The notes beneath the pieces are model-generated. The model ran no database searches. It saw nothing but the letters and a program-made list of their open reading frames with translations, and had not been told where the DNA came from. From positions 832,001 to 896,000 of the forward strand of contig CP000070.1 in the NCBI GenBank assembly GCA_000002445.1: DNA of 64,000 bases. Reading direction: 5' to 3'. Positions 2,020 to 64,000 of the stretch are shown one piece after another. The first letter of the stretch is position 1. Every line of letters begins with the position of its first letter. The DNA is from Trypanosoma brucei (lineage: Eukaryota). The position numbers and the translations under genes were made by a program.

Positions 2020-2317
2020 TGCGCGGCGCCGCCCACGGTGTGGCACCGCTTGCGCAATGAACGCATGGCCGAAATGTGCCCTTCGTAATATACAAAAAAA
2101 ACTCAGAGGGGTGGTGTTCCCTCGTTCTCCCCTCCCCCCGTCGCACGCCAACTGCACCTACTTGCACGGAAATCGACCGCGCTCTTTCTTTCTACTGGGC
2201 GCCGACTGATTTGCACCCCCTTTTCTAAACACCCACCCTTTTCCACCACCCCGTTATTTACCCCCGGCCCCGGCGTCAGCCGCCACTCGCAGTAGGATTC
2301 TTAGGGACATCTGGAGA

Positions 2318-2809
2318 ATGCTGCGCTCAACTCTGACCTCACTGAACACGTTTCTCACAAGCTCCGTCGCCACCCCACCGATATCTGTAATTAGAACGGG
2401 GCCGAAATGGTGGGCGGATCCCGAGCGCATGGTACGGCAGAAACTCATGTACTTCACGTTAGGGGTCGATCAGCTTCCACTGCGACGAACGGCGGTCATA
2501 CAGCGAGACCTGCAACGCTTCCATATGTGCAAACCGCCTCCCCGTGTTGGGGACTCAACGGGCTACAAACGCTCCCGGGCAGCTCAACTTAACACTTGGT
2601 ATCGCCGCATCCAGTACCAGGAGTATCACATGCAGCATCTCTTCACCAGGCATGTGTGGGGACTGTTGCGTGTGTACCCGGGGAACACTACGAAGATACA
2701 AGGCAAGGCAGATGATGGCTACGTGGGGTACGATTCGGTTCCGTTCCACCGATACAATCGGGCTCCTCTCCCGTTCCCCGCACGGGAACTTTACGAGCGG
2801 AGGAAATAG
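2318..2809 (+). CDS. Hypothetical small basic protein (163 aa), possible mitochondrial presequence
   Basis: ATG at 2318 checked. N-terminus 'MLRSTLTSLNTFLTSSVATPP' is R/S/T/L-rich. Same strand and spacing as the upstream gene and not overlapped by a better ORF. No motif recognised. Confidence 0.45.
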   Translation: MLRSTLTSLNTFLTSSVATPPISVIRTGPKWWADPERMVRQKLMYFTLGVDQLPLRRTAVIQRDLQRFHMCKPPPRVGDSTGYKRSRAAQLNTWYRRIQYQEYHMQHLFTRHVWGLLRVYPGNTTKIQGKADDGYVGYDSVPFHRYNRAPLPFPARELYERRK

Positions 2810-22846: not shown

Positions 22847-23889
22847 AACTGCAGGTTGTGCTGATGCTTTTTTTTTTGTTCCTTCCTTGTATGTACAGAC
22901 CCGTATACAGGCATACATGCATATACACATTTGTATAAATCAACCACATGTAAAGGATGAAGGAAAGGGATAAATTTCCCGTTAATTTTCGGAGTATTGA
23001 GGGTGACGTGAAAAAAAATAAATCACACAGTAACGTGAAAGGGATAAAAGCACGGAAAATGAGTCGTGTGCACACTCACACTATGTCCATGTGCAGATGT
23101 GAGACTGCAAAAGACGAATCGGGCGCCTCGGAGCCTGGTACTGTCAAAAAAACTGAACTGCCTCACAGATGAGCAAATAGGTAACTCAGCCGCAAAGCAT
23201 GGAAGGGAGGGGAAGAAAATATGAGACCATGGATCTCAATCGGAACAAAGCATAGCCTTTTACAGACGCGCCTCGTGTACACAAGTCCTTTTTCTTAAGC
23301 ACATGTTACCACCCAACACATGAAAACTGTCACGGGTACTTATGCACCTGCAGTGGGCAGTGTACGCTATACCACAGTTGCAGCGACCTGTAGAGCAACA
23401 ACAATGAGGGAACGGAGAAACCACAGAACCTCCTCAGCAGAGTAACGGAAGGGAAAGGTGATCGAAATCAGGGGCAATAGGTTGTTCAAAGGCGACTAAA
23501 ACACGTACGCGGAATGCCCATATTAATATGTTGCAAGAAGGTGACGCGCCCAAGCGAGAGCTCCTCGGAAGGCGAAAGGCCAAAGGCGCCAAAGAAAGAG
23601 GAAAAAAAAGAGAAAAAGCGGGGAGAGGAAGGGGAAGAACACAAGAAAGAGGTTCGCCGCGACTCTCATTCGCACCCACGCACACAAACACCCACCCACG
23701 TGCGCGGAGGCCAGTGTGGAGATGCAAACAAAGAGTTCCCCAACTGTGTGAAACTATATACAAATATGTAAGAATCATGCATATATATATTTGCCTGTTA
23801 AAGGTGAGTTGTAGAATTGTGACAACCCTCCTGGAGGATCATAACACCATCCTCTCCCTGCAAGTGAAGGGGAACACATCACCGCATGT

Positions 23890-38800: not shown

Positions 38801-39892
38801 GCTAACGACATCACCATTATCATCCGAAATACTCAAAACTGTCAGAATACAAGAACGGGAAACGTTGGTTGACGGCCTATCAGCAGAGGCAACGAACGTA
38901 AGGTACTGTTCGCTCTCATCTTCGCAAGCCCCATCGTCAACACTGCTTCCCTCTTCAGCACTGCAGTGCAACTTTGTTTCAATGCGCTTGATTTGCGTGT
39001 TCAGTTCCTTTATGTGAGCTATGTGGCTGGTAATATTCGCGTGCAGCTCGTCTGTGGACCGCTGAGAGTTTACGATCTCACATATGACGTGAAACATGCC
39101 CATCTGGGCAATGATCCAATCAAAAAGAAGAGGTAGCAGGGTGTCAGTACCGGACCTCGACCCGCCGGTCGTTTTCCCACTTAGTTGATTGCAGTAGAGG
39201 TGGACATCGGACATGTAGGCATCGTTGATGTCGTTGTAAAGTTCTACGCTCATATCAGTCATTGGGTCAAATTCCAGCAACCGCTGTATGTAGGTCGGAT
39301 CCCTCACAGCGGCCCGCAGGTCCTCCCACGACCATGAGGAATCAACAACCAAGTCCTCATTTAGAAGTGCGACAGTTGCCTCTAGCGCAAGCCGAAGTTG
39401 CACCGATGGAACCCGTGTGTTGAACACTTCGTGAAGTCGCACCTCCTCTACAGCCGCAATAGCACGACGAACGGCATCGGAAGACTCCTTTGCACGCCCC
39501 ATGGCCGCCTCATTGTTACGCCGAACAGCCGCCATCTCCTCGCGCAACGCCATAACACTCATGTGGCGGTGCCTCATCTCCTCCATTTTCCTCTCTTTGT
39601 CGATCCTTAGTGTGTTGAGAACAGCGGGATCGTGGCTGTTCTGTGGGAGCAACACACGCACCGTAGCGGAACGTGAATCCAGCTGCAACACGCGCCCCAG
39701 AAACCATCGCCGCTTGGAAGCTTTGCCTAATAATTCATAGGCCACAAGAGACCCCACGCACAAGGGGTCTTTCACACTATTAAGTAACGACTTCACACGG
39801 CTGTGGGTCGGACTAGCGCCTTTGTCCAACGCATGCAGAGAATCTGCTGTTTGTGACCACTCCTCATCGAAATGGCCTTCGGCGGTTGCCAT
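26888..39892 (-). CDS. FAZ10: Giant (4334 aa, ~0.5 MDa) coiled-coil repeat protein; candidate FAZ10-type flagellum-attachment-zone protein
   Basis: Single uninterrupted minus-frame ORF. The track start is GTG; the first ATG is at 39890-39892 ('MATAEGHFDEEW'), checked. ~750-aa non-repetitive N-terminal region, then heptad-rich coiled coil built from 35-aa repeats 'EELRNT(D/E)GDKARELDVQNEKLHEMEEQLAELRAEN'. The FAZ10 assignment rests on size and on recalled neighbouring genes, not on a search. Confidence 0.85.
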   Translation of the reverse strand: MATAEGHFDEEWSQTADSLHALDKGASPTHSRVKSLLNSVKDPLCVGSLVAYELLGKASKRRWFLGRVLQLDSRSATVRVLLPQNSHDPAVLNTLRIDKERKMEEMRHRHMSVMALREEMAAVRRNNEAAMGRAKESSDAVRRAIAAVEEVRLHEVFNTRVPSVQLRLALEATVALLNEDLVVDSSWSWEDLRAAVRDPTYIQRLLEFDPMTDMSVELYNDINDAYMSDVHLYCNQLSGKTTGGSRSGTDTLLPLLFDWIIAQMGMFHVICEIVNSQRSTDELHANITSHIAHIKELNTQIKRIETKLHCSAEEGSSVDDGACEDESEQYLTFVASADRPSTNVSRSCILTVLSISDDNGDVVSITDKDVQFIDWCATIHRPLLHVALHHALEGGFSCGGLQPKDEAVDSQPRQNSTDIAHEENSDLLQQIEEAQRVNNELQQLLNEQRELAEKTRQEGIIKISELKQRHDEDLRQLEHYRKEIEELQRESSGDQIRGYDATDQGVSEHESPLHASTRGGSREGYIIEGHKDQHGERVTSTLKKNIDLREWRTHIINNREDINKAVLVDAARACQVDISDIDDICFNEYYTSVVFTVSHPPSVSQYDLAQRVRRAEFLSVLQLMQTIGKQGESDPHQHSNRGRREGDHQDSPSYSHSLHETLDDGDLFMSTREEIAQIEELRGHIKALEERLRILNDENTLLRRTKENKEEVIQTKTEDAKDDGYLLEKETSEEETTRTNTSVESSEECQTRETYRKETPTEHSKLHEQDESLRDHDKDNICNIRAHRQRQQKTEEPLSEESPEERKAVRIKEDKQGQHSPMRPHQQIIGQLIEKEELHCIREAASGDVELQGYVHEMEEQLAELRAENEELHRIREAASGDVELQGYVHEMEEQLAELRAENEELHRIREAASGDVELQGYVHEMEEQLAELRAENEELHRIREAASGDVQLQGYVHEMEEQLAELRAENEELRNTDGDKARELDVQNEKLHEMEEQLAELRAENEELRNTDGDKARELDVQNEKLHEMEEQLAELRAENEELRNTEGDKARELDVQNEKLHEMEEQLAELRAENEELRNTEGDKARELDVQNEKLHEMEEQLAELRAENEELRNTEGDKARELDVQNEKLHEMEEQLAELRAENEELRNTEGDKARELDVQNEKLHEMEEQLAELRAENEELRNTEGDKARELDVQNEKLHEMEEQLAELRAENEELRNTDGDKARELDVQNEKLHEMEEQLAELRAENEELRNTDGDKARELDVQNEKLHEMEEQLAELRAENEELRNTEGDKARELDVQNEKLHEMEEQLAELRAENEELRNTDGDKARELDVQNEKLHEMEEQLAELRAENEELRNTEGDKARELDVQNEKLHEMEEQLAELRTENEELRNTEGDKARELDVQNEKLHEMEEQLAELRAENEELRNTEGDKARELDVQNEKLHEMEEQLAELRAENEELRNTDGDKARELDVQNEKLHEMEEQLAELRAENEELRNTDGDKARELDVQNEKLHEMEEQLAELRAENEELRNTDGDKARELDVQNEKLHEMEEQLAELRAENEELRNTEGDKARELDVQNEKLHEMEEQLAELRAENEELRNTDGDKARELDVQNEKLHEMEEQLAELRAENEELRNTDGDKARELDVQNEKLHEMEEQLAELRAENEELRNTDGDKARELDVQNEKLHEMEEQLAELRAENEELRNTDGDKARELDVQNEKLHEMEEQLAELRAENEELRNTDGDKARELDVQNEKLHEMEEQLAELRAENEELRNTEGDKARELDVQNEKLHEMEEQLAELRAENEELRNTDGDKARELDVQNEKLHEMEEQLAELRAENEELRNTEGDKARELDVQNEKLHEMEEQLAELRAENEELRNTDGDKARELDVQNEKLHEMEEQLAELRAENEELRNTDGDKARELDVQNEKLHEMERHLQQLKEENEELRNTDGDKARELDVQNEKLHEMEEQLAELRAENEELRNTDGDKARELDVQNEKLHEMERHLQQLKEENEQLRLTDFDNAKEIESLNELIVNVESKISLLQESLKAIRAENDELRKHDSRWMASMEGDCMVSSQCVQLQGERLDELLKNKPEELRCAVVVDAANACRVYRDCVSNVTFTPSGRVVEFDVTHPSSIHPSEIAQRLQHYPFRETQRLLLKLNEPKDGLDLLKEQIDEGRQQLNTLEQELCELGAKLHDVSSERDDLLRLQEEKTNELAAQQARLTAVENQLDALVEENCDLKRTLECKSNDLVVQEGLLGDLDGKLQEFLVQNEQLRGSDEAKARELDVQNEKLNEMEEQLAELRTENGGLRDSEAEKARELDLRSRHLEEMEEKVKKMQEEVDALRECVREKVIELDAQNELCSAKDQHIKKLSKESEELHRAEEEKARELDLLKKHVCEVERHLQQLKEENEQLRLAESDNAKEIESLNELIANVESKISLLQESLKAIRAENDELRKHDSRWMASMEGDCMVSSQCVQLQGERLDELLKNKPEELRCAVVVDAANACRVYRDCVSNVTFTPSGRVVEFDVTHPSSIHPSEIAQRLQHYPFRETQRLLLKLNEPKDGLDLLKEQIDEGRQQLNTLEQELCELGAKLHDVSSERDDLLRLQEEKTNELAAQQARLTAVENQLNTLARENEELCKNNEIISVDAKKQSEYIQDVHRQMRTLSESHSNLQQICNSKTNQIEELNSQLRQLQQDANELQKENEQLREHEVEKSLDLCVQSGRVQELVEQLREVRTENTGIREEQHAKLRELEVRNQQLLYLQKELEQKINGLRTENEELRNTEGDKARELDVQNEKLHEMEEQLAELRAENEELRNTDGDKARELDVQNEKLHEMEEQLAELRAENEELRNTDGDKARELDVQNEKLHEMEEQLAELRAENEELRNTDGDKARELDVQNEKLHEMEEQLAELRAENEELRNTDGDKARELDVQNEKLHEMEEQLAELRAENEELRNTDGDKARELDVQNEKLHEMEEQLAELRAENEELRNTDGDKARELDVQNEKLHEMEEQLAELRAENEELRNTDGDKARELDVQNEKLHEMEEQLAELRAENEELRNTDGDKARELDVQNEKLHEMEEQLAELRAENEELRNTEGDKARELDVQNEKLHEMEEQLAELRAENEELRNTDGDKARELDVQNEKLHEMEEQLAELRAENEELRNTDGDKARELDVQNEKLHEMEEQLAELRAENEELRNTEGDKARELDVQNEKLHEMEEQLAELRAENEELRNTDGDKARELDVQNEKLHEMEEQLAELRAENEELRNTDGDKARELDVQNEKLHEMEEQLAELRAENEELRNTDGDKARELDVQNEKLHEMEEQLAELRAENEELRNTDGDKARELDVQNEKLHEMEEQLAELRAENEELRNTDGDKARELDVQNEKLHEMEEQLAELRAENEELRNTDGDKARELDVQNEKLHEMEEQLAELRAENEELRNTDGDKARELDVQNEKLHEMEEQLAELRAENEELRNTDGDKARELDVQNEKLHEMEEQLAELRAENEELRNTEGDKARELDVQNEKLHEMEEQLAELRTENEELRRSNELFSLRNDDRDVSRDAKDGAMKIDSDGEYLLKEKSADVDVSGDGDGIGVIKNELILVKRENIDLRSVDDENSKEIECLLSDVKELRLKLSEISSENDELRKELDIKSHELVVQGELLQELGDRLKEFLTQNEQLRGTDELRVDELDKQQRRLRDMEEQVMELQAVNERKTNELVSQSDGLRKAVDALKKLRSGVDVVDASSHNDRPSVLMSNALDDLEEALNEPSRGGEEERKHDSRWMASMEGDCMVSSQCVQLQGERLDELLKNKPEELRCAVVVDAANACRVYRDCVSNVTFTPSGRVVEFDVTHPSSIHPSEIAQRLQHYPFRETQRLLLGSSIGTNDAGGGNLTMSSFLRRACGVMVDEQGVFVDEVLSRLVIERSSLSSLQCLLVVGFLNRDRIRAKREGDLLDELEERATEHTEMLENMEEMVVLLDEARQAECTVRSELFAREEELLELRCTQDRDKKFRDEMLLSLFNMLEKARSSHVEVARGKVEELMSGVYLVGELEQEVKKLSEENAALREELEQREITHKEDLDALNRKIAALLLELDEKGFEYTDTIGKLDEFVNVLEGARAAEKAALMALEAREQELFDLQDAKDDEMREVEAVMQQLEARIEELQGGMPVPLPWTSSEHLGETGNSTTSAVTVPSASNLAVGGTDIISSMRHQLERLKREKEALMVELQSKGRQHDDVVDELNRNIGGLMTDLDSRIRGCQVSATSAKELLREISLLRSVEEGEDDEDEGDATGCPTTHLGGPWAHH
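29195..31525 (-). repeat. Array A: ~22 tandem copies of a 105-bp coding repeat (35-aa unit) inside the giant gene
   Basis: Period measured from 'tcagtattgcgaagctcctcatt' recurring every 105 bp. Copies differ only at a few mostly synonymous positions (ctgcacatc/ctgtacatc, ctcctcc/ctcttcc) and a D/E site. Confidence 0.9.
31960..32650 (-). repeat. ~690-bp intragenic module, duplicated at 33165-33855 (period ~1205 bp); a 300-bp partial third copy lies at 28183-28483
   Basis: 'cagcagccgctgcgtttccctgaatgggtaatgctgaagccgttgagc' appears at 28183, 32187 and 33393, identical over ~300 bp. Encodes 'KHDSRWMASMEGD...VVVDAANACRVYRDCVSNVTFTPSGRVVEFDVTHPSSIHPSEIAQRLQHYPFRETQRLL'. Confidence 0.85.
33856..37020 (-). 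repeat. Array B: ~30 tandem copies of the same 105-bp repeat
   Basis: Same unit as array A, separated from it by ~2.3 kb of unique or duplicated module sequence. Confidence 0.9.
37020..37385 (-). repeat. ~3.5 copies of a diverged 102-bp (34-aa) repeat at the protein-N-terminal side of array B
   Basis: 'gcgatgaagctcctcattttcagcgcgtagttcagcaagttgctcttccatctcatgaacgtatccctgcagctcgacgtcacctgatgctgcttccctaat' recurs with period 102. Protein unit 'EEQLAELRAENEELHRIREAASGDVELQGYVHEM'. Confidence 0.85.
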
Positions 39893-41065
39893 TGTAGGAA
39901 AGAGAACACGGAACACTAGCTAAAGCACCCAAAAGTACCTGGTCCCAAAACCCTGGTTGACACTTTGCTACTCTCCCCCTTCCCTCAATCGCTCTACTAC
40001 ACCTCGCTCACAAGTTCTACTGACTTCGCACTCAGCGGAGTTCGGATTCTTCCAAGACACGGCCAAATCCTCTCCTCCTCCTCCTCCTGTTTTTGCCCTT
40101 TTTTTTTCGTTCTATTACAAAAATTAAACAAAACTTTTGTCCTCCCCAACACTCACCCTCGCGGTGGCAAACACCAGTAGCAGTGGTGGTGTCGCCTCGT
40201 CACACTCGAAATGAACTACCGACTTGGGTGTGTTAACTCAGCCTTTCCACGGGGTTAGATCGCTCTTCAACTTTTCTGGCCCCTGTAGGTGCGGTTCTGA
40301 CCGTTCTTCGGGAATACTATAATGTACAACGATGCAAGCAGAGGAAACAGGAGAAATGAAATGATGGACACGACCCACTTGTAAAATCGACTAGTGCGTG
40401 GGTCTAAAGATAACACACAAATGCACAGTTATTTGTTTCTTACAAAGAAATCCGCACACTCAACGATACTTTTTCGACCTCTTCCTGCCGCTTGCAGTCT
40501 GACGCTCTTGCAACGATCCGCAAAAGCACAAGGCCAACACCAAACAGATACGATGCGATATGATATTATACGTATACCCACGTAATATCCAGAAAGTAGC
40601 GCATCTGCATCCTCCCCCCCCCCTCGTTGCAGCCACCTGTTTCTACGTGCGGGCACAATAAAGGAAGAAGGTCGCTTCCTTCTCACTATCAAGTGGAGGT
40701 CAAAGGAAAGACCACCCCTCTGGTCTGAGGCTTAAAATGAAAACAACGATGTGTCGGCAACTTCTGCAGTTCATTCAGGAGAATGGCACAACGTCGCATG
40801 TACGACCACCGTCGCCACCAGCAGCGGCACCGACAGAAGTTGATAGTTATAATTTTTTCCCCCTTTTAAAGTTCTGTACCGCGTAATCACCCGATGCCTC
40901 CTCCCTTCCTGTCGTTTGCTCGATGGGGAAGATAAATGTGAACGACAAATGTGGCAGTCACTTGTGAAGGGTCAAAATCAAAACATACCAATACACCACC
41001 AACTACGTCCTCAGCCTGACACCGCACCTTCCCACGCACGCACTCGCATGGGGCACCACACGCTC

Positions 41066-43280: not shown

Positions 43281-44354
43281 TCAAGCAATAGGTTCGTTAT
43301 CATGTGTTTCTCTCTCTAACCGCACACCGCCTTTATGGTCACTTGTAGTTTCCCGTATCTCGCATGTCTCCCCCGGCTGGCTTGTGTCTCTACTCGGGTA
43401 GGCACCATCAGTCGCATTGTCCCCAAGGTTGTGGACCCCGATATCGGGAACGGCACCACTACTTCCTGCCGGATTCTTTTTATATCGGCGAAAGTCACGA
43501 CGCTTCTGGATTGCTAAGCACCCGCATGGCCCTTTACTTCTATCCGTGGCGACGAGTGGCTTTGACTGCTTCGATAACTTTTCACGCCTTTTCGCACGTT
43601 TGCTCAGCACGTGTTCGTACGTGGTTCGGCGGGTTAAGCAGAGATTGATATGAAACACTATGAGATTTCCCAATGCGGCCAGTCCAGCAGCGGAGAGCGC
43701 AAGTGTGAGAAAAAGAAAAACCATGTACGTCACGTAGCTACTGACTCCAAAACGCTCCTTGAGGCGGTCACTGAAGTCCTGCTTGTGTATAAATGCATTA
43801 GAGATGACGTAAATGCCAACGCCGAACACAAGGGCGATAGAACACCATGCTGTGCCCATGAAGCAGCAGAACATGACATAATTCCCCTCCCCTACACACG
43901 TGTTCAGCCAACGACAGTGGTGGTCGAAGCCGGGGACACACTTGTCACACACACTGCAGTGTTTGCTGCCCAAAATAACAAAGCGTCTGCAAAAGACGCA
44001 AGGCTCAGTACCAGGCGGGGCGGCTTCCTGCACAAGTTCCTCTTGTGCATAGCGTGGAACGTCCGTGGCAAAGACAATTGGGTCCTCAATCCGACTACAG
44101 GAAAGCGCTAATTTCAGCGCCGCTGTAGTGAATGTTAAGAAGCCAGAAATGGGGGAAATTATGCAAACCAGCAAACTATCGAGCATCGGAACGTGCAGTG
44201 TGAAATGCAGCGTAGCAAGCGTGACAATGACAGACCAAGCTATTACCTGAAGGGCGTCTAAAGGACACTCAAACCCACTGCGCCGCGGCCGTACAGGGCC
44301 CCCATAAATGTCAATCCACTGCCCAACAGGAGGCTCACAGCAACAGCTGCACAT
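43281..44354 (-). CDS. DHHC-type zinc-finger palmitoyl acyltransferase (~357 aa, 4 predicted TM helices)
   Basis: 'CVFCRRFVILGSKHCSVCDKCVPGFDHHCRWLNTCVGEGNY' is a canonical DHHC cysteine-rich domain flanked by hydrophobic helices. The track start at 44468 is TTG; the first ATG is codon 39 ('MCSCCCEPP'). Confidence 0.8.
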   Translation of the reverse strand: MCSCCCEPPVGQWIDIYGGPVRPRRSGFECPLDALQVIAWSVIVTLATLHFTLHVPMLDSLLVCIISPISGFLTFTTAALKLALSCSRIEDPIVFATDVPRYAQEELVQEAAPPGTEPCVFCRRFVILGSKHCSVCDKCVPGFDHHCRWLNTCVGEGNYVMFCCFMGTAWCSIALVFGVGIYVISNAFIHKQDFSDRLKERFGVSSYVTYMVFLFLTLALSAAGLAALGNLIVFHINLCLTRRTTYEHVLSKRAKRREKLSKQSKPLVATDRSKGPCGCLAIQKRRDFRRYKKNPAGSSGAVPDIGVHNLGDNATDGAYPSRDTSQPGETCEIRETTSDHKGGVRLERETHDNEPIA

Positions 44355-45006
44355 TAAAAGATTACAAGGACACACCGAACTGTGAACCTTCCAATTTGTT
44401 GAAGGGAAACAAGAAGCAACAAACCAGCAGTAACAGTAGAAGATGCTACGGCAAATCCGCCCCCACAATAATTTACGTCTACTCCCCTCCGGTCCCGCTC
44501 CCTGCTGTTAAGTGTGCGTGTATGTTTGTGTCGCACTACAGCGTGTCCCCTTTTCCGATCCTGCTACTTTCTTCCACTCGTCCTCAAACAGTTCCTTAGG
44601 GTTTAGGTGTACCTCCCCTCACCTTATCCAACTAAACGTCGGGCAATCCAGAGGGACAGTGCTGAAGCAACGAGCAGATGCGGGGCCGATGCAATGGCAG
44701 CGCCACGTGTATCCCCCACCCTACTGGTCCTTAACCCCACCTCCCCACCGGCCCCTCCGTGTTATCAAAGAACTTTACTTCTTGCCGTTGTTTTTCCTCT
44801 TATTTCGCTCTCTGAGCAACTACTTTTTTTTTGCGCTTTCCGCTTTCCTCACTCTATTCCTCTCCCCCACCCCTTTCCCCAATGGAGCTTTTGATGCGTA
44901 CTTATGCGGGTGAAGAACCCACCGTATATGCGCACACACACAAACTGATGACACCGTGATGAGGAGCTGATGGTCAAAAATTGGCGATGAAGTCCCAACA
45001 GTAACA

Positions 45007-53080: not shown

Positions 53081-54394
53081 TCATGTTGGTGCATCCGCCA
53101 TACAATCGATCACCTCGTCTGGCAAACCCAACCGCATGTTGAGCACCGGATCCGGCTCTTCTGGAGCAATTGGGGCACCCCTTCCCCCACAGTAGGAAAG
53201 AGAGGTCCCCTCAAGGTTACAACCAGGGACTACCTCACAGTGAGGCTCGTCATGGCTCCACGTGCCACGGAAAACGCGGCCATCCCGTGTTTTGATTTCA
53301 CCCACACCATGTCTCCTGTCATCTAGCCAGTCACCAGAGTACTCAACTTCCCCGCATTGGTACACACCTCGTCCGCAACGCTTACCGCCTCGAAACTCAC
53401 CCTTGTAGCTACATTTTTTGTCTTGGGAAACAAACTCACCATCGCCATCGTATAGTCCCCTACACCAGGAACCCTTATACATGGACCCGTCGGCGTATGT
53501 GCATTTCCCGATGCCATGAACAGCACCACTGCTCCACCCTCCTTCGTACTGAAGCAACTTACTTGTATATGTCCCCGTGCCGTGCTTCCGTCCGTTACAC
53601 CAATCTCCGGTATAAACATCCCCATTGTAGTAGGTCATCGTTCCACGGCCGTGCTCATAGCCGTTTCGCCACTGGCCTTCGTACCTAGCCCCGTTAGTAT
53701 AGAAAAATGTTCCCGAGCCTTCGTACACGCCATTCACCCAATCGCCTTTATACGCATATCCCTCACGGTACAGGTACTCTCCGTATCCCCGTATTTGGCC
53801 GTCAACAAAATCGCCAATATACAGCCCTTCAGGTTCCGCCAGCTCGCCCCGACCATGCCATTTTCCGGCCAGCCACTTCCCGCTGTAAAGTGTTCCAAAG
53901 TTAGGGCTGCAGCACATGCCATTACCATTGCGCACTCCGAAGAACCATTCACCCTCGTAAATATCGTTATCTGCCACTCGGCGCATGACGCCCGTCCCGT
54001 GCATTCGGCAACTTTTCCAATTGCCTTCATACATATCGCCGTTGTCAAAAGTAATGGATTGATACCCTTCTGGACTCATTGCCTTCAATCGTTCACGTAC
54101 AACAATGAGCAGTTCGTCAAGAAGAGCCTGTGTGCGCTCAGATGCACGCTGCTCCACTAACTGCAGCTCCTCTCGCCGCTCATTCTGCTTTCGCAGCAGG
54201 TGTCTTAGCGACTTCTTGAAGTTCAAACATTCTATATGACCAGCCTCACGCTCTCTAAATGTCCTCTCAACTTCCTCCTGTGCTTCCAGCGACTGCCGCA
54301 GTATCTCTATCCCGCCCTTAGGGAATGTTGGGGGGTTCACGGACGGACAGGAACTCCACATCGGCACTAGGCCGATTCCTGATCCCAAAGCCAT
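53081..54394 (-). CDS. MORN-repeat protein (437 aa, ~12 consecutive MORN units)
   Basis: ATG at 54392-54394 checked. Units 'YEGNWKSCRMHGTG', 'YEGEWFFGVRNGNG', 'YSGKWLAGKWHGRG', 'YKGDWVNGVYEGSG', 'YEGQWRNGYEHGRG', 'YTGDWCNGRKHGTG' and further. Confidence 0.85.
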   Translation of the reverse strand: MALGSGIGLVPMWSSCPSVNPPTFPKGGIEILRQSLEAQEEVERTFREREAGHIECLNFKKSLRHLLRKQNERREELQLVEQRASERTQALLDELLIVVRERLKAMSPEGYQSITFDNGDMYEGNWKSCRMHGTGVMRRVADNDIYEGEWFFGVRNGNGMCCSPNFGTLYSGKWLAGKWHGRGELAEPEGLYIGDFVDGQIRGYGEYLYREGYAYKGDWVNGVYEGSGTFFYTNGARYEGQWRNGYEHGRGTMTYYNGDVYTGDWCNGRKHGTGTYTSKLLQYEGGWSSGAVHGIGKCTYADGSMYKGSWCRGLYDGDGEFVSQDKKCSYKGEFRGGKRCGRGVYQCGEVEYSGDWLDDRRHGVGEIKTRDGRVFRGTWSHDEPHCEVVPGCNLEGTSLSYCGGRGAPIAPEEPDPVLNMRLGLPDEVIDCMADAPT

Positions 54395-58291: not shown

Positions 58292-58987
58292 CTAATAACG
58301 AGGAGACAGAATGTCAAGAACCTCCTTGCCTGGCATCGTGTGCAAAGCCCGCTCCCCTGACAACGCACGTTCCGTGTCCTCAAGCTTATCACCACTACTC
58401 TGACCGCATTCTGTAATCCACGCTCGACTAACCGGCGTACCACAGCTGGAGCCAGATAAAACGGCGACACGGTCAACCACTTCCCATCCATCGATAACCT
58501 GTCCGCAAACAACAAATTTGCCATCTAAATGGTCATTCCGTGCTAAGTTGAAAAAAAACTGTGAACCGTTTTGATTGGGGGCGCTGTGCGCCATTGCCAC
58601 CGTTCCTCGAAGATGTTTCCCTGCCTTACCCTCAAAACTCTCGTCCGGGAATGGAAATCCGAACACACTAACATTTCCTCGTCCATCCTTCAGCAAAATA
58701 TCACCCCCTTGCACGATAAACCCAGGGATGACACGATGAAATGGAATACCTTTGTAAAACAAGGGGCATTGGCTGTAACCTCGCTCACCAGTGCATAGTG
58801 AACGAAAATTTTCGGTTGTCTTGGGAACGATGTCGTGGAAAAGCTCAACACTCACACGGCCGAGTGCATCTCCCTCCACGGTGACGTCCATGAAAACCAC
58901 GGGGTTCACCTCATCTCGTTCGTACGGTACGAAATACTGCAGTATCCTCCCGTTAATTAGCTGTGCTAAACGCGTACGATGTAGCAT
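58292..58987 (-). CDS. Cyclophilin-type peptidyl-prolyl isomerase with ~30-aa N-terminal extension
   Basis: 'EVNPVVFMDVTVEGDALGRVSVELFHDIVPKTTENFRSLCTGERG...YKGIPFHRVIPGFIVQGGD' aligns with the cyclophilin A core. The track start at 59008 is TTG; the first ATG is codon 8 ('MLHRTRLAQLINGRILQYFVPYERDE...'). Confidence 0.8.
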   Translation of the reverse strand: MLHRTRLAQLINGRILQYFVPYERDEVNPVVFMDVTVEGDALGRVSVELFHDIVPKTTENFRSLCTGERGYSQCPLFYKGIPFHRVIPGFIVQGGDILLKDGRGNVSVFGFPFPDESFEGKAGKHLRGTVAMAHSAPNQNGSQFFFNLARNDHLDGKFVVCGQVIDGWEVVDRVAVLSGSSCGTPVSRAWITECGQSSGDKLEDTERALSGERALHTMPGKEVLDILSPRY

Positions 58988-59471: not shown

Positions 59472-60212
59472 TTAGCACCCGCAACCTGCCTTTTGCTTCG
59501 GTGGCGGTGGGCGCTGAGCCTCCGCCCTCGCTCTCGCTTCCGCTTCTGCCCTTGCTCTTGCTTCTGCCTCTGCCCTTGCTCTCGCTTCTGCCTCTGCCCT
59601 TGCTCTTGCTTCTGCCTCTGCCCTTGCTTCCGCTTCTGCCTCTGCCCTTGCTCTTGCTTCCGCTTCTGCCTCAGCTTCCGCGTCGGCTTCGGGGTTGGCC
59701 TCATCCTCCACGATGGGCTCGCCCTCAACCTCAATTTTCCGTCGCATGTATTCCCTCCTTATTTCTCTCATAGCCTCTCTCCCTTCTTCACCATACAGCG
59801 CATCCATAAACTCATCCACTGACACGTATCCCCGGTTATCCGAGTCCAGTGCGTTAAAAAGCGCATCGACCTCTTCAACACTGAGTGTGTCTTGAGTGGA
59901 ACCAACCTTTCCAGCGGTTTCCTGAAGTGTGGCGCGGGTAAAAATGCCATCAGGGGCGAGGGCAACAAGGTGCTTCGCCATTGCGTATGCGTCCCGAATG
60001 TGCTCACTCTCTTCACACATCAGCAAAAATTCATCTTCTGTTAGCAAGCCTGGAAACTGGCCTCGACGCGCGACATCCTCCACAGCCGACAACTTAAATA
60101 AGAATCCAGATTCCAAACCGGCAACAAGGGCTATAGATGGAGGGACAACTTTGTTTCCATCTCTCCTCTTGAAGTGCCGCTTTTCGAATGCAACATCTGG
60201 AGGGCAGAGCAT
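59472..60212 (-). CDS. EF-hand protein with long acidic Glu/Ala-rich repeat tail ending '...PPPPKQKAGCGC' (246 aa); possibly I/6-autoantigen-like cytoskeletal protein
   Basis: The track start is TTG; the first ATG is at 60210-60212 ('MLCPPDVAFEKR'), checked. EF-hand loop 'DALFNALDSDNRGYVSVDEFMDAL'. C-terminal '(AEAEARAR)n' encoded by imperfect 24-bp repeats ~59540-59665. Confidence 0.65.
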   Translation of the reverse strand: MLCPPDVAFEKRHFKRRDGNKVVPPSIALVAGLESGFLFKLSAVEDVARRGQFPGLLTEDEFLLMCEESEHIRDAYAMAKHLVALAPDGIFTRATLQETAGKVGSTQDTLSVEEVDALFNALDSDNRGYVSVDEFMDALYGEEGREAMREIRREYMRRKIEVEGEPIVEDEANPEADAEAEAEAEARARAEAEAEARAEAEARARAEAEARARAEAEARARAEAEARARAEAQRPPPPKQKAGCGC

Positions 60213-61212
60213 TATCTTGAATAAGGTAACAACAACTTTGAATATGTAAGGTTCTTCACCTACATGGACGGGGGAATTTAAAAGGAATGAAACGTAACTG
60301 CAGCATGGCGGGTAACGACAAGTACGCAACCCACGTAGAATTTTGAAGGAAATACTAACATGTGAGTTTGGGAAAGAATCAGCATATCGAAGACATTTGT
60401 ATTAAGCACATATGATAAAGCGAGCGACTGCAAATTTATTCCCGTCCCCTCACTTTCTAGGATAAAAGATTTAACAAATTCATCTGAATTTCTGTTGCCT
60501 GTCCACCCATTCCAGATCCGTTCACAACTCTGCCTCTTCATCTGCTTCCGCCTCCTCGTCCGCTTCTGCATCCACTTCCGCATCAGCTTCAGGGTTGGCC
60601 TCATCCTCCACGACGGGCTCGGTCTCAGCCTCAATTTTCCGTCGCATGTATTCCCTCCTTATTTCTCTCATAGCCTCTCTCCCTTCTTCACCATACAGCG
60701 CATCCATAAACTCATCCACTGACACGTATCCCCGGTTACCCAAGTCCAGTGCGTTAAAAAGCGCATCGACCTCTTCAACACTGAGTGTGTCTTGAGTGGA
60801 ACCAACCTTTCCAGCGGTTTCCTGAAGTGTGGCGCGGGTAAAAATGCCATCAGGGGCGAGGGCAACAAGGTGCTTCGCCATTGCGTATGCGTCCCGAATG
60901 TGCTCACTCTCTTCACACATCAGCAAAAATTCATCTTTTGTTAGCAAGCCTGGAAACTGGCCTCGACGCGCGACATCCTCCACAGCCGACAACTTAAATA
61001 AGAATCCAGATTCCAAACCGGTGCCAAGGGCTATAGATGGAGGAGTAACCTTGTTTCCGCTCCTCTTGAAGCACCGCTTTTCGAATGCAACATCTGGAGG
61101 GCAGAGCATTATCTTGAATAAGGTAACAACAACTTTGAATATGTAAGGTTCTTCACCTACATGGACGGGGGAATTTAAAAGGAATGAAACGTAACTGCAG
61201 CATGGCGGGTAG
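59670..61212 (-). repeat. Tandem duplication (period 900 bp) giving the two EF-hand genes; high identity over ~640 bp per copy (59670-60312 vs 60570-61212), divergent 3' parts
   Basis: 'gcctcatcctccacga[tc]gggctcg' at 59700 and 60600. Upstream flank identical to 'catggcgggta', then unique. Confidence 0.85.
60522..61109 (-). CDS. Tandem paralogue of the EF-hand protein (195 aa) with a short divergent acidic tail ('...EADAEVDAEADEEAEADEEAEL')
   Basis: ~95% identical to the 59472-60212 product over the N-terminal 170 aa. The track start is TTG; ATG at 61107-61109 checked. Confidence 0.65.
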   Translation of the reverse strand: MLCPPDVAFEKRCFKRSGNKVTPPSIALGTGLESGFLFKLSAVEDVARRGQFPGLLTKDEFLLMCEESEHIRDAYAMAKHLVALAPDGIFTRATLQETAGKVGSTQDTLSVEEVDALFNALDLGNRGYVSVDEFMDALYGEEGREAMREIRREYMRRKIEAETEPVVEDEANPEADAEVDAEADEEAEADEEAEL

Positions 61213-61319: not shown

Positions 61320-62669
61320 TCATAACCTCTCCATCGATCTCGATGTGGAAATAAAAGATCCCAGGTCCCCAACCCGTCGAAATACAGACCCCATTTCATT
61401 GTTCCGTGGATCCATCTTACTGGGATATAGCTTATTTTTGAACTCCACCCAATCAAACTCGTTGCTGAACCCCTTTCCACTTCCACTAAGCAACCCCCGC
61501 GACTGTTGTGAAGGAAGGTGAGACCGACTCTCTCTTAAAGAACGCGGCACCTGTTTATAGACGGATGGCTGCTCTTCACGTAATGCCTGCAATTTGTTCG
61601 CTAGTTTTTCAAGATGTTCGTTTCCAACATACAAAGTGAGACCATCCTTCACGATCGCCTCAGCTTTCTCAAAGTCATCTTGATATGCTGCCGCCGCCGC
61701 CCATCCCACGTAACCCCTTGCGCAAGCGGTGCTCGTTGGCTTCACCTGTGGCTGCAGCAACGCCGCCTCTCTCCCGTTGTACTCTGCACCTTTGAAGTCA
61801 GCATTTAACAGTGAAGCAAATGAGATATTAGCGTGAGTAGTGGCCTGGGAATCAGGATCATGACAAAACATTAAGGCGTCAGCTAGCACGGATGCTGCAT
61901 CGCTATAGTTACCAGCATTAATGCACCCTTCTGAAATGGTCGTGAGCAGAAGAATTAGGCTTCTTTCATCATCTGCCGTCGTCTCAGCGGGGGACACTGT
62001 GGCCCCGATAAATGTACCTAAACTTTCGCTGATCTCCACTTGATGTTGTTCAGGCAAGCATTTTTCGCATTCCCCTAATACAGAAAGTGACCCTTCGAAA
62101 CGACTCCTCGCCAGCCGCCGGTGAGGCGTGCTCCCACCCTTTTCAACATAAGACTTATAATCAAACAGATCGTCTAGAAACCGGTCTTTTAAAACGGGGT
62201 TGGATAGTACGGATCTGAGACCAACAGGGGATATCTTAACCCCAAGTTGCTCCTCGAATTTTTTCATCGGAACGAGGAGAGGAGCAATACTGGGTTGCAA
62301 CGTCTTGTATCCACGTGCTGATTCAACCTCTGGGTACACTTCCACAGCTTTAAAGAAATCGTTAGAAGCGTTGACAAGCTCGCTAAGGGGATCTTTTATG
62401 TAGCAACGAAGCCACTCCTCCACCTCAACAGGTACGTGTTCCTGTTGATACGTTGAAAGAAATTCGTGTAGCCGGAATGGCACCTCCATACCAGTAGGAA
62501 AACACCCCAGTGTCCACCAGTACTTCATAGTGTACGGTCCTGGGCCGTGTGGACCCGGGAAGCGGTAAAGGTACAACGTTGGGTTCAGTGTCATATGTTT
62601 CTGATGTTTCGATCCTGGGCTCCATCCGCCCCTTTGGTAATTCTTACATGAAACACTCCGGAAAAGCAT
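61320..62669 (-). CDS. Conserved hypothetical protein (~449 aa), possibly helical-repeat (TPR-like)
   Basis: Long minus-strand ORF. The track start is TTG; the first ATG is codon 6 ('MLFRSVSCKNYQRGG', basic N-terminus). No confident motif. Confidence 0.55.
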   Translation of the reverse strand: MLFRSVSCKNYQRGGWSPGSKHQKHMTLNPTLYLYRFPGPHGPGPYTMKYWWTLGCFPTGMEVPFRLHEFLSTYQQEHVPVEVEEWLRCYIKDPLSELVNASNDFFKAVEVYPEVESARGYKTLQPSIAPLLVPMKKFEEQLGVKISPVGLRSVLSNPVLKDRFLDDLFDYKSYVEKGGSTPHRRLARSRFEGSLSVLGECEKCLPEQHQVEISESLGTFIGATVSPAETTADDERSLILLLTTISEGCINAGNYSDAASVLADALMFCHDPDSQATTHANISFASLLNADFKGAEYNGREAALLQPQVKPTSTACARGYVGWAAAAAYQDDFEKAEAIVKDGLTLYVGNEHLEKLANKLQALREEQPSVYKQVPRSLRESRSHLPSQQSRGLLSGSGKGFSNEFDWVEFKNKLYPSKMDPRNNEMGSVFRRVGDLGSFISTSRSMERL

Positions 62670-62922
62670 CTGAGGAGTCCTCAAAATGCAATACCTTGAA
62701 AATTACACGAAACATGAGGATTCTTTTTTTTTTCGAATGGTGCAAATGAATAAAGAAACAATGTACACAACGTAAGTTCGCACTGTCAAAACTTATTTAA
62801 AAGGGGGATGAGAAGTAAAAAAAATTGAAGATAAATCCGCAGGAGCCTCAATGAAAATTCCAAACGTTTGCACCCCACGAATGCAACGCGAATGCATTTT
62901 CTTGTGTTTCGTGATCAATGAT

Positions 62923-63705
62923 TCAAGTAGCGAACTGTTTAAGTAAGCGCAACCAGTTAAGATATTCTTCCTGCTCCAGAAAGTGCGCCTGAGCCATCAT
63001 ATACTCAGCAAAGCCGTTATTTACACCACGTTCATCCAAATAATCTAGTATTTCATCAGTTAAATCGTCATCAAGTTCATTGAGCATCGGTCCGCGGTAA
63101 CGATAATCCCTGCAGCGTCTGCATTCGATATTCAGTTTCTGCCCGAAAGAAGTACCTACACTTGTTGTTTTACCTGGACCTAAAGCTCCGATAGAGTAGT
63201 CCATTTCCCTATCCGTGCTGTGAACCACAAGCGAATCCATCACCAATTCCATGTCAATCGAAGTTAACCCAAACTCCACGCCCCCTGAGTGTTGATGTTT
63301 CTTTATAAAGAGGTTGAAAACTAGATATTCTTCACCGTTCCGTTCCCCATTGTCCATCCGATATGTTTGTTCATATTTTTTTGGCTCCATCAAGGCAACG
63401 ACGTGCAAATCTTCCCTTGCACTATCATCGGCACCCATTGTTTTTGTCAAATCAAACCTGCAACTTCCAATTTTGTGCTCCATGCTCCATCCCGCCGGCA
63501 CAGCGGGTTTGGGGGGCAAAAAATCGCGTATGGCCTCTTCACTCAATTCACGCGTTGTAAGATCATAAAGCTTCCGGTGGCGGTAAAACGGTACCCGCCT
63601 TATCTGTTGAGGAGTTACCGCAGTGACTGGGTATCCCTGCGGGGAAACTTGGGAGTACAGGCGGTACTCACAAATCGCTTTGCGTGAAGCAACTACACGC
63701 CGCAT
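62923..63705 (-). CDS. p32/gC1qR/MAM33-family mitochondrial acidic matrix protein (260 aa)
   Basis: C-terminus 'LDYLDERGVNNGFAEYMMAQAHFLEQEEYLNWLRLLKQFAT' matches the conserved MAM33 C-terminal helix. I chose ATG at 63703-63705 ('MRRVVASRKAICEYRLYSQ', presequence-like) over the 76-aa Phe/Cys-rich upstream extension in the track ORF. Confidence 0.75.
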   Translation of the reverse strand: MRRVVASRKAICEYRLYSQVSPQGYPVTAVTPQQIRRVPFYRHRKLYDLTTRELSEEAIRDFLPPKPAVPAGWSMEHKIGSCRFDLTKTMGADDSAREDLHVVALMEPKKYEQTYRMDNGERNGEEYLVFNLFIKKHQHSGGVEFGLTSIDMELVMDSLVVHSTDREMDYSIGALGPGKTTSVGTSFGQKLNIECRRCRDYRYRGPMLNELDDDLTDEILDYLDERGVNNGFAEYMMAQAHFLEQEEYLNWLRLLKQFAT

Positions 63706-64000
63706 TTTGGGTGAGAACACCTTATACGTATTTTTTTTCCGTTTATGTGAATACCGGTAACAACAAACGAAGCTTATAAGAACAAAAATTGTCACGGATG
63801 TTCTAATTCGAAAGCTGTAAAAAAAAAAAAAGACAGACAAACGTATTAGTCGTTCGAGAAGATCAAGGGATATACACGGAGCACGCCGACAAAATTCTGC
63901 AAAACGTGTCGGCTTGCAGTGAAATATCGCCAAAATGCAATGCCACTAGAGGTACTCATATCATTACAACGCGAAAAATAGAAATACTGTGGTTACGCAT

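What the first reader, a model, noticed from the sequence alone, without database searches (positions are those of the whole stretch)
59472..61212. Tandem EF-hand gene pair with divergent acidic tails; one ends in a CGC motif after 24-bp Glu/Ala repeats
Both genes share an N-terminal EF-hand region (~95% identity), but the 3' ends differ. Copy 1 carries ~8 imperfect 24-bp repeats encoding '(AEAEARAR)n', then 'QRPPPPKQKAGCGC*'. Copy 2 has a short 'EADAEVDAEADEEAEL*' tail. The terminal Cys-Gly-Cys could be a lipidation (acylation or prenylation-like) site, which would target only one paralogue to membrane or cytoskeleton. The conserved 50 codons upstream of the first ATG ('CYPPCCSYVSFLL...') are also identical in both copies, hinting at a conserved 5'UTR element or a non-ATG-initiated extension.
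Basis: partly seen in the sequence, partly recalled or inferred. Interest (0 to 1): 0.5.

Follow-up and report, generated by a model that had tools for sequence, protein, structure and literature searches.

The report
Known trypanosome I/6 antigen gene pair
This is the already described Trypanosoma brucei cytoskeletal "I/6 autoantigen" gene plus a neighbouring duplicate that has lost the ancestral tail; that tail ends in cysteines conserved across kinetoplastids and is probably the lipid anchor, so the locus is largely ordinary.

Summary
Two head-to-tail genes lie on the minus strand: copy 1 (60212→59472, 246 aa) and copy 2 (61109→60522, 195 aa). They share a 656-nt unit at 96% identity. Copy 1 is the T. 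brucei I/6 autoantigen (Tb927.7.3440): 99% identical to SwissProt AGI6_TRYBB over residues 1-166, in conserved synteny (MAM33 – unknown gene – I/6 – cyclophilin). I/6 is already reported as cytoskeletal, raft-associated and palmitoylated.

What comparison adds:
- A polybasic stretch ending in CC or CGC is present in all 15 fetched relatives other than T. congolense (Trypanosoma, Leishmania, Phytomonas, Angomonas and unnamed). The anchored copy is therefore ancestral. Copy 2 and T. congolense TCIL3000_7_2700 (both ending AEL) are a derived, anchorless form.
- The AEAEARAR repeats are modelled as one 59-residue Ala/Glu/Arg helix joining a degenerate calmodulin-like domain to the tail.
- The identical upstream stretch is 102 nt (34 codons, not 50). 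It holds the trans-splice signal and a 47-nt AUG-free 5'UTR, not a coding extension.
- The SwissProt entry reads the repeats in the +1 frame, probably from two compensating sequencing errors.

There is no link to calflagins. Interest is low to moderate.

The parts
59472..60212 (-). Copy 1 coding sequence: I/6 autoantigen (Tb927.7.3440-type), 246 aa plus stop
   Evidence: ORF and translation. 99% identical to AGI6_TRYBB over aa 1-166. Predicted mass 27,050 Da against 27.03 kDa listed for Tb927.7.3440.
59475..59516 (-). C-terminal tail QRPPPPKQKAGCGC: proline/basic patch plus the terminal Cys244-Gly-Cys246 (Cys244 at 59481-59483, Cys246 at 59475-59477), the candidate S-acylation anchor
   Evidence: Translation. 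Homologous tails ...KKAMCGC...KTKACC...KKKKASACC and ...KAKGGCC occur in 15 relatives. Disordered in the AF2 model.
59517..59693 (-). Ala/Glu/Arg region (aa 174-232), modelled as one continuous helix. It contains the 24-nt (8-aa AEAEARAR) repeat array at 59518-59670.
   Evidence: TRF: 6.4 copies, score 229. AF2: helix 174-232 with pLDDT about 85-96. Composition 29 A, 17 E, 11 R of 59, with 21 opposite-charge i/i+4 pairs.
59811..59846 (-). Only recognisable EF-hand loop of copy 1 (aa 123-134, DSDNRGYVSVDE), with Arg at ligand position 5
   Evidence: Pfam EF-hand_8/EF-hand_1. Family alignment shows loop ligand positions are not conserved. The literature calls it a non-functional EF-hand (PMC5617996).
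60213..60259 (-). 47-nt 5'UTR of copy 1, with no AUG
   Evidence: cDNA-derived P0002 starts ARDYI|GEEPYIF, which back-translates to adaptor GCACGAG + spliced-leader 3' end ACTATATTG + GTGAAGAACC. It departs from the genome exactly after the AG.
60260..60314 (-). AG trans-splice acceptor (60261-60260) and pyrimidine-rich tract, forming the upstream end of the duplicated unit
60522..61109 (-). Copy 2 coding sequence: anchorless paralogue, 195 aa plus stop, acidic tail ending EEAEL. Its EF loop is mutated to DLGNRGYVSVDE (60711-60746).
   Evidence: Closest tail type is T. congolense TCIL3000_7_2700, ending GGDAEL.
61110..61211 (-). Copy 2 5'UTR (61110-61156), predicted AG acceptor (61158-61157) and pyrimidine tract. 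102 nt identical to the copy 1 equivalent.
   Evidence: The splice site is inferred by identity with copy 1.
58292..58987 (-). Downstream neighbour: cyclophilin-type peptidyl-prolyl isomerase (synteny marker)
   Evidence: Pfam Pro_isomerase, E = 7e-40. Same neighbour in T. grayi L001 and in L002.
61320..63933 (-). Upstream neighbours: a 454-aa ORF with no Pfam domain (61320-62684) and a MAM33-domain protein (62923-63933), both synteny markers
   Evidence: Same order in L001 and L002.

Best explanation
This is the I/6 autoantigen locus of Trypanosoma brucei chromosome 7, carrying a tandem duplicate.

Copy 1 (the downstream gene) is I/6 itself and keeps the ancestral kinetoplastid architecture:
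- a degenerate calmodulin/centrin-like EF-hand domain (aa 1-162), probably not a calcium sensor;
- a short hinge;
- a roughly 9-nm charged single alpha-helix made of AEAEARAR repeats, which is the local version of the Glu/Arg/Lys-rich linker seen in all relatives;
- a proline/basic patch ending in Cys-Gly-Cys.

The most likely mechanism is that the terminal cysteines are S-acylated (palmitoylated). Together with the basic patch they would fix the C-terminus to the inner face of the plasma or flagellar membrane. The helix would hold the N-terminal domain at a distance, where it contacts the subpellicular microtubule cytoskeleton.

Copy 2 is a derived paralogue, also present in T. congolense, that replaced the linker and anchor with a short acidic tail. 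Its 5' processing signals and core are kept nearly identical to copy 1 by gene conversion.

Shown: gene identity, architecture, conservation of the terminal cysteines, synteny and single-copy state in two other kinetoplastid contigs, and the published palmitoylation and raft association of I/6. Inferred: which cysteines are acylated, the single-helix spacer role, the microtubule-contacting part, and any function for copy 2.
For: Identity:
- AGI6_TRYBB is the top hit, 99% identical over aa 1-166.
- Predicted mass matches Tb927.7.3440.
- Neighbours FPPS-like, IFT74-sized, cyclophilin and MAM33 fit chromosome 7.

Ancestral anchor:
- 16 of 18 family sequences end in CC or CGC after K/R-rich residues. 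These are T. grayi, Phytomonas, Leishmania, Angomonas and nine unnamed Logan/JGI sequences, plus copy 1.
- The gene is single-copy, with the same neighbours, in T. grayi L001 and in L002.

Lipidation:
- PMC5617996 reports I/6 as abundant in the raft proteome and DRM-associated. It cites I/6 as high-confidence palmitoylated in Emmer 2011.
- T. cruzi I/6 lacks Gly2 yet is enriched by azidomyristate labelling (PMC4974623).

Structure:
- The AF2 model has mean pLDDT 81: globular 1-162, helix 174-232, disordered tail.
- Foldseek matches centrin/calmodulin over about 140 columns, E about 1e-4.
- The helix contains only A, E and R, so it has no hydrophobic seam.

Gene conversion:
- aa 32-123 differ at one nucleotide, and the 102 nt upstream are identical.
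- The tails and 3'UTRs share nothing.
- Copy 2 shares Gly30 and the AEL end with T. congolense P0068, where T. grayi has copy 1's Val.
Against: - The acylated residue has never been mapped. Cys3 (MLCPP), present in both copies and in T. congolense, is an alternative site.
- The C-terminal eGFP fusion of I/6 still partitioned into detergent-resistant membranes (PMC5617996). This neither proves nor excludes the terminal cysteines.
- A predicted helix is not proof of a stable monomeric single alpha-helix.
- Linker length varies from about 40 to 130 residues across species, which argues against a strict ruler.
- I could not read the original 1997 paper or the palmitoylome paper.
- Whether T. congolense also has a CGC-tailed copy is unknown.
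Confidence: 0.6

Rival explanations
1. The lipid anchor is at the N-terminus (Cys3 of MLCPPD, plus Cys13 in copy 2), as in other trypanosome acylated proteins. The terminal CGC is then incidental or has another role, and both paralogues would be membrane-targeted.
For: - Cys3 is present in both copies and in T. congolense.
- I/6 tagged with eGFP after the CGC still behaved as a DRM protein (PMC5617996).
Against: - Cys3 is absent from every other family member (MP..., MS..., MV... N-termini), while the terminal CC/CGC is the only cysteine feature common to all anchored members.
- T. cruzi I/6 starts MP yet is fatty-acid labelled (PMC4974623).
- S-acylation does not need a free C-terminus, so the eGFP fusion result is uninformative.
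Confidence: 0.15
2. The C-terminal CXC/CC motif is doubly geranylgeranylated, as in Rab GTPases, or otherwise prenylated.
For: CXC and CC are the classical Rab geranylgeranylation termini (established knowledge).
Against: - There is no Ras/Rab domain, only EF-hand models and a calmodulin-like fold. Rab geranylgeranyltransferase acts on Rab-REP complexes (established knowledge).
- There is no CaaX box: the cysteines are at positions -3 and -1.
- PMC5617996 describes I/6 as palmitoylated, citing the Emmer 2011 palmitoylome. I recall that study using acyl-biotin exchange, which detects thioesters rather than prenyl thioethers, but I could not read it.
Confidence: 0.04
3. The real I/6 repeat is the basic Gln/Gly/Lys/Arg-rich one in the SwissProt entry (QGQRQKQE...), which would bind acidic tubulin tails. 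The acidic reading of this window would then be strain-specific or wrong.
For: - AGI6_TRYBB residues 167-227 equal the +1 frame of the same DNA.
- A basic repeat would suit a microtubule-binding protein.
Against: - In the window, only frame 0 links the ATG, the repeat and the QRPPPPKQKAGCGC end without interruption.
- The SwissProt protein needs two compensating shifts (-1 nt after GAGCCC, -2 nt in GAGGGCGGAGGCT), both in G+C-rich runs.
- The independent cDNA-derived P0002 carries the same repeat allele but not the 3' shift.
- Tails of T. congolense and T. grayi score 82 and 50 against frame 0, versus 26 and 24 against frame +1.
- The Tb927.7.3440 mass of 27.03 kDa fits frame 0 (27.05 kDa), not the SwissProt sequence (27.76 kDa).
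- PMC8625193 lists I/6 among T. brucei cytoskeleton-associated proteins with negatively charged repeats.
Confidence: 0.04
4. Copy 2 is a decaying, functionless duplicate rather than a specialised anchorless isoform.
For: - There are 11 non-synonymous against 2 synonymous codon differences in the core.
- Its EF loop lost Asp at ligand position 3 (DSD→DLG).
- It has no anchor.
Against: - The ORF is intact and the trans-splice signal and 5'UTR are identical to copy 1.
- A similar acidic, AEL-ended protein is retained in T. congolense.
- Homogenisation by gene conversion would keep it expressed.
Confidence: 0.2

Closest known systems
Trypanosoma brucei I/6 autoantigen (SwissProt AGI6_TRYBB; Tb927.7.3440; Detmer et al. 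1997, Eur J Cell Biol 72:378)
   Same: Copy 1 is this gene. It is 99% identical over aa 1-166, has an identical last 15 residues, carries the same 8-aa repeat DNA and matches in mass. I/6 is reported as cytoskeletal, with a non-functional EF-hand, palmitoylated and raft-associated (PMC5617996).
   Different: The SwissProt entry reads aa 167-227 in the +1 frame (pI 9.7 against 4.8) and has 6 nt fewer in the repeats. Copy 2 is a separate, unstudied paralogue without repeats or anchor.
Kinetoplastid 'I/6 autoantigen-like' or 'EF-hand domain pair' proteins (T. grayi XP_009314305, Angomonas deanei CAD2218466, Leishmania, Phytomonas)
   Same: Same N-terminal domain (27-51% identity), charged helical linker, polybasic patch and terminal CC/CGC, and the same synteny.
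   Different: The T. brucei linker is a young 24-nt tandem array of Ala/Glu/Arg, whereas others are Glu/Lys/Arg-rich and mostly non-repetitive. Only T. brucei, and by inference T. congolense, has the anchorless duplicate.
C-terminal Cys-Cys S-acylation anchors (yeast casein kinase Yck2 -GCC palmitoylated by Akr1; plant type-II ROP polybasic + GC-CG box). Recalled from established knowledge.
   Same: Terminal cysteines without a CaaX box, next to basic residues, on a peripheral membrane protein. This is what the I/6 tail most likely works like.
   Different: There is no sequence relationship. Acylation of the I/6 terminal cysteines has not been demonstrated.
ER/K single alpha-helix (SAH) linkers (myosin VI/X, caldesmon; synthetic Ala-based E/K peptides). 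Established knowledge.
   Same: A long helix of only Ala, Glu and Arg with opposite charges at i/i+4 and no hydrophobic seam. AF2 models a single helix.
   Different: It is half alanine and has an 8-residue period rather than E4K4 blocks. Monomeric stability is untested.
Calflagins / FCaBP (flagellar calcium-binding proteins)
   Same: They are also EF-hand proteins of trypanosomes that are acylated and raft-associated.
   Different: Calflagins are anchored by N-terminal Gly2 myristate plus Cys3 palmitate and have working EF-hands (established knowledge; PMC4974623 reference 38). I/6 starts MLCPP and has a degenerate loop. Neither calflagin nor FCaBP was named among the hits that carried a name.
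WCB (C2-domain corset protein; Baines & Gull 2008, cited in PMC8625193)
   Same: It is a repeat-containing protein of the plasma membrane-subpellicular microtubule interface, combining a membrane-binding module with repeats.
   Different: Membrane binding is through a C2 domain rather than a lipidated tail, and the sequence is unrelated.

Membership tests
I/6 autoantigen family (kinetoplastid) | N-terminal domain homologous to AGI6_TRYBB | tested here: met
   Copy 1 is 99% identical over aa 1-166. Copy 2 has 11 substitutions and one codon indel in aa 1-172 relative to copy 1. phmmer gives E = 2.6e-71 to T. congolense and 1.8e-40 to T. grayi I/6.
I/6 autoantigen family (kinetoplastid) | Conserved gene order: MAM33 – unknown gene – I/6 – cyclophilin | tested here: met
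   Window compared with T. grayi L001 and the Logan contig L002.
I/6 autoantigen family (kinetoplastid) | Charged helical linker followed by a polybasic patch and a terminal CC/CGC | tested here: met
   Met for copy 1. Not met for copy 2, which ends EEAEL and is therefore a divergent member of the family.
Functional EF-hand calcium sensors (calmodulin/centrin type) | Canonical 12-residue loops with ligands at positions 1, 3, 5 and 12 | tested here: not met
   There is one recognisable loop only. It has Arg at position 5 in copy 1 and Gly at position 3 in copy 2. Position 12 is R, Y or D in relatives. The fold is calmodulin-like. The literature calls it a non-functional EF-hand (PMC5617996).
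Calflagin / FCaBP | N-terminal Met-Gly-Cys dual acylation motif | tested here: not met
   Both copies start MLCPPD.
CaaX-prenylated proteins | Cysteine four residues from the C-terminus (C-a-a-X) | tested here: not met
   The tail is ...A-G-C-G-C*, and relatives end ...A-C-C* or G-C-C*.
Rab-type CXC/CC geranylgeranylation | Rab GTPase fold recognised by REP | tested here: not met
   No Ras-family Pfam hit. The fold is EF-hand.
S-acylated (palmitoylated) peripheral membrane proteins | Thioester-linked fatty acid on cysteine | not testable with these tools
   Reported at the proteome level for Tb927.7.3440 (PMC5617996 citing Emmer 2011), and fatty-acid labelling is reported for T. cruzi I/6 (PMC4974623). 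The site is unmapped. Only conservation of the terminal cysteines was tested here.
ER/K single alpha-helix domains | Long helix rich in E and R/K with i/i+4 opposite charges and no hydrophobic seam; monomeric in solution | tested here: inconclusive
   The sequence pattern and the AF2 helix 174-232 are met. Monomeric stability cannot be tested computationally here.

The most novel reading that the evidence does not exclude
The I/6 family may be a conserved kinetoplastid tether. A dually S-acylated polybasic C-terminus would sit in the plasma or flagellar membrane. An ER/K-type single helix of species-specific length would act as spacer, and a calcium-insensitive calmodulin-like head would grip the subpellicular microtubule array. 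African trypanosomes would have added an anchorless, acidic-tailed paralogue, kept homogenised by gene conversion, that competes for the same cytoskeletal site and so tunes membrane-corset coupling.
Probability: 0.2. Interest if true: 0.5.

Novelty: already known. Interest (0 to 1): 0.27.

Why it matters
I/6 is an abundant, immunogenic protein of the trypanosome cortex that is reported as acylated, and its function is still unknown. The comparison gives three concrete, testable points:
- The terminal CC/CGC after a basic patch is the conserved candidate anchor.
- The repeats are an Ala/Glu/Arg helix, not the basic repeat shown in SwissProt. This changes expectations for charge, antigenic epitopes and peptide identification.
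- T. brucei carries a natural anchorless version next to the anchored one, which offers a ready-made contrast for localisation experiments.

None of this overturns current understanding.

Tried and rejected
- An exact look-up of both proteins found neither in the collection. The look-up of encoding contigs also failed for P0002 and P0068. I therefore could not read the T. congolense locus or the cDNA behind P0002.
- The first homology search with the full protein was swamped by low-complexity Ala/Glu hits from bacteria. It was repeated with the core only and with a family profile.
- I looked for residual homology between the two 3' regions, to see how copy 2 lost its tail. The best local score was 20, against 18.7 ± 2.2 for shuffles.
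- Tail similarity of distant relatives to frame 0 versus frame +1 does not discriminate, because both are low-complexity and charged. Only the Trypanosoma sequences discriminate.
- Rfam and tRNA scans of the window found nothing, so no RNA gene explains the conserved upstream stretch.
- The afdb50 fold library was unavailable.
- The palmitoylome paper (PMC3067466) is not held, and terms containing 'I/6' could not be searched. No paper mentions candidate IDs for copy 2.
- Rejected: the calflagin relationship, prenylation, an upstream coding extension, and the basic SwissProt repeat.
Full report
**What is in the sequence**

The region holds two head-to-tail genes on the minus strand.
- Copy 1 runs from the ATG at 60212 to the stop at 59472-59474. 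It encodes 246 aa ending ...AEAQRPPPPKQKAGCGC.
- Copy 2 runs from 61109 to 60522-60524. It encodes 195 aa ending ...EADAEVDAEADEEAEADEEAEL.
- The duplicated DNA is 59659-60314 vs 60559-61211: 656 nt at 96% identity. It begins 102 nt upstream of each ATG and ends where the tails begin.
- Copy 1 has a 24-nt array at 59518-59670: 6.4 copies, 87% matches, TRF score 229. It encodes AEAEARAR-type units.
- Both proteins match Pfam EF-hand_8, with E = 5e-14 and 2e-12.

**Identity**

- The best database hit is SwissProt AGI6_TRYBB, the T. brucei I/6 autoantigen. It is 99% identical over residues 1-166 and identical over the last 15 residues.
- The raft-proteome paper equates I/6 with Tb927.7.3440 and lists it at 27.03 kDa. 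Copy 1 computes to 27,050 Da.
- Other genes in the window fit T. brucei chromosome 7. These include a 367-aa polyprenyl (farnesyl-diphosphate) synthase, a 596-aa ORF the size of IFT74 (Tb927.7.3370), cyclophilin and MAM33.
- The exact proteins are absent from the searchable collections.

**The SwissProt entry is in a different frame**

- AGI6_TRYBB residues 167-227 (SWRMRPTPKPTRKLRQKRKREQGQ...) are the +1-frame translation of the same repeat DNA. Residues 1-166 and 229-243 are in the window's frame 0.
- This needs a 1-nt loss after ...GAGCCC and a 2-nt loss in GAGGGCGGAGGCT. Both sites are G+C-rich.
- All three frames are open through the repeats, so such errors would not have been obvious.
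- Five observations favour frame 0:
  - It is the only uninterrupted ORF in the window.
  - The T. congolense and T. grayi tails score 82 and 50 against frame 0, versus 26 and 24 against frame +1.
  - The copy 2 tail continues in the acidic frame.
  - The genome-annotation mass fits frame 0.
  - P0002, a frame-hopping translation of an independent cDNA with the same repeat allele, lacks the 3' shift.
The protein is acidic (pI 4.8), not basic (pI 9.7).

**The identical upstream stretch**

- P0002 begins ARDYIGEEPYIF. Back-translated, this is GCACGAG, which I recognise from memory as a common cDNA-cloning adaptor, followed by ACTATATTG, the last 9 nt of the T. brucei spliced leader (also recalled), and then GTGAAGAACC...
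- It departs from the genomic sequence exactly after the AG at 60261-60260.
- So the 102 nt consist of a pyrimidine-rich tract (TTTCATTCCTTTTAAATTCCCCCGTCC), the AG trans-splice acceptor and a 47-nt 5'UTR without any AUG.
- MLCPPD starts at the first AUG of the mature mRNA. An ATG at 60306 is out of frame and lies upstream of the splice site.
- No coding extension or special element is needed. The stretch is the upstream end of the duplicated or converted unit.
- No Rfam family or tRNA is present.

**Comparative evidence on the tail**

- An exhaustive phmmer search and a profile search recovered relatives from T. congolense, T. grayi, Phytomonas, Leishmania and Angomonas, plus several unnamed assemblies.
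- Sixteen of 18 sequences, counting copy 1, share one architecture. It has a domain of about 155 aa, a Glu/Arg/Lys/Ala-rich linker of about 40-130 residues, a basic patch, and a terminal CC or CGC. Examples are T. grayi ...KEQKKAMCGC, Leishmania ...KKKKASACC and Angomonas ...KEKAKGGCC.
- The terminal cysteines are the only cysteine feature common to all of them. Cys3 occurs only in T. brucei and T. congolense.
- In T. grayi (L001) and in an unnamed kinetoplastid contig (L002) the gene is single-copy, between a gene of about 400-450 aa plus MAM33 on one side and cyclophilin on the other. This is the same arrangement as in the window.
- The anchored form is therefore ancestral and copy 1 retains it. 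The only exceptions are copy 2 and T. congolense TCIL3000_7_2700, both acidic and both ending AEL.

**Evolution of the pair**

- Within residues 1-172 the copies differ at 13 codons (11 non-synonymous, 2 synonymous) plus one codon indel. The differences cluster at aa 13-31, at 124-125 (EF loop DSD→DLG in copy 2) and at 162-167.
- aa 32-123 differ by one nucleotide, and the 102 upstream nt are identical.
- The tails and 3' regions share no detectable similarity.
- Copy 2 shares Gly30 and the AEL terminus with the T. congolense protein, where T. grayi has copy 1's Val.
- The simplest reading is an inference: the duplication predates the brucei/congolense split, and later gene conversion homogenised the 5' two-thirds in T. 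brucei.

**Structure and mechanism**

- AlphaFold2 with a 10-sequence alignment gave mean pLDDT 81. The model has a globular domain at 1-162, a low-confidence hinge at 164-172, one helix at 174-232 (pLDDT about 85-96) and a disordered tail at 233-246.
- The globular part matches centrin and calmodulin over about 140 columns (Foldseek E about 1e-4, about 20% identity).
- Only one EF loop is recognisable and its ligand positions are not conserved. This agrees with the published 'non-functional EF-hand' (PMC5617996).
- The helix contains only Ala, Glu and Arg, with opposite charges at i/i+4 and no hydrophobic seam. That is the signature of an ER/K-type single alpha-helix. Fifty-nine residues would span about 9 nm.
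- Published work bearing on lipidation:
  - I/6 is abundant in the raft proteome, and I/6-eGFP is DRM-associated. I/6 is cited as a high-confidence palmitoylated protein (PMC5617996).
  - T. cruzi I/6 starts MP yet is enriched by azidomyristate labelling, and the authors did not consider it misannotated (PMC4974623).
- My best explanation has three parts. The terminal cysteines are S-acylated next to a basic patch and anchor the protein. The charged helix acts as a spacer. The calmodulin-like head contacts the microtubule cytoskeleton.
- The acylation site, the spacer role and the binding partner are all inferred. Cys3 acylation is the main rival.
- Prenylation is unlikely because there is no CaaX box and no Rab fold.
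- There is no calflagin relationship: both copies lack Gly2, and the family and locus are different.

**Verdict**

This is a known gene with a known class of modification. The tandem paralogue and the comparative points are useful refinements rather than discoveries: the conserved CC/CGC anchor, the single-helix linker, the trans-splice explanation of the upstream identity, and the frame error in SwissProt. Interest is 0.27 and the novelty class is 'already known'.

Noticed in passing
window 59517-59700 (minus strand), compared with P0001 (AGI6_TRYBB): The SwissProt I/6 entry reads residues 167-227 in the +1 frame of the repeat DNA (pI 9.7 instead of 4.8). It returns to frame 0 for the last 15 residues. 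This is probably two compensating sequencing errors in G+C-rich runs. All three frames are open through the repeat.
   Followed up: yes
P0002 (metaclust, 337 aa): This database 'protein' is a frame-hopping translation of an I/6 cDNA running from adaptor and spliced-leader remnant into the 3'UTR. It is useless as a protein but reveals the trans-splice site, and it shows the mRNA reaches at least about window position 59255.
   Followed up: partly
window 43281-44468 (-): A DHHC palmitoyltransferase gene (Pfam DHHC, E = 1e-26) lies about 15 kb downstream on the same strand as the palmitoylated I/6. This is probably coincidental, and no link was tested.
   Followed up: no
window 26888-39916 (-): A giant 4342-aa ORF contains two arrays of a 105-nt (35-aa) repeat: 29196-31526 (22 copies, 98% matches) and 33861-37329 (33 copies, 96% matches). 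By size and position it may be the giant flagellum-attachment-zone protein FAZ10 of chromosome 7. That identification is from memory and was not tested.
   Followed up: no
window 4329-5522 and 6888-7907 (-): Two neighbouring ORFs (397 and 339 aa) both match the A-type trypanosome variant surface glycoprotein domain (E about 2e-10). They form a VSG-related gene pair inside a chromosome-internal gene run.
   Followed up: no
window 2019-4329: The only plus-strand gene, a WD40 protein at 172-2019, converges on the long minus-strand gene run, so this gap looks like a convergent strand-switch (transcription termination) region. No tRNA genes were found there.
   Followed up: partly
window 60711-60746 (-) vs 59811-59846 (-): Copy 2's single EF-hand loop carries Ser→Leu and Asp→Gly changes (DSDNRG→DLGNRG) that remove a calcium-ligand position. 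T. congolense keeps DSDNRG.
   Followed up: partly
window 60304-60306 and 61201-61203 (-): An out-of-frame ATG opening a 16-codon ORF (MLQLRFIPFKFPRPCR*) sits in the identical upstream stretch. It lies upstream of the inferred trans-splice acceptor and so should be absent from mature mRNA.
   Followed up: partly
window 53081-54394 and 21860-22930 (-): Two MORN-repeat proteins are encoded in the window. The matches are strong for the first (E = 6e-36) and weak for the second (E = 3.5e-6).
   Followed up: no
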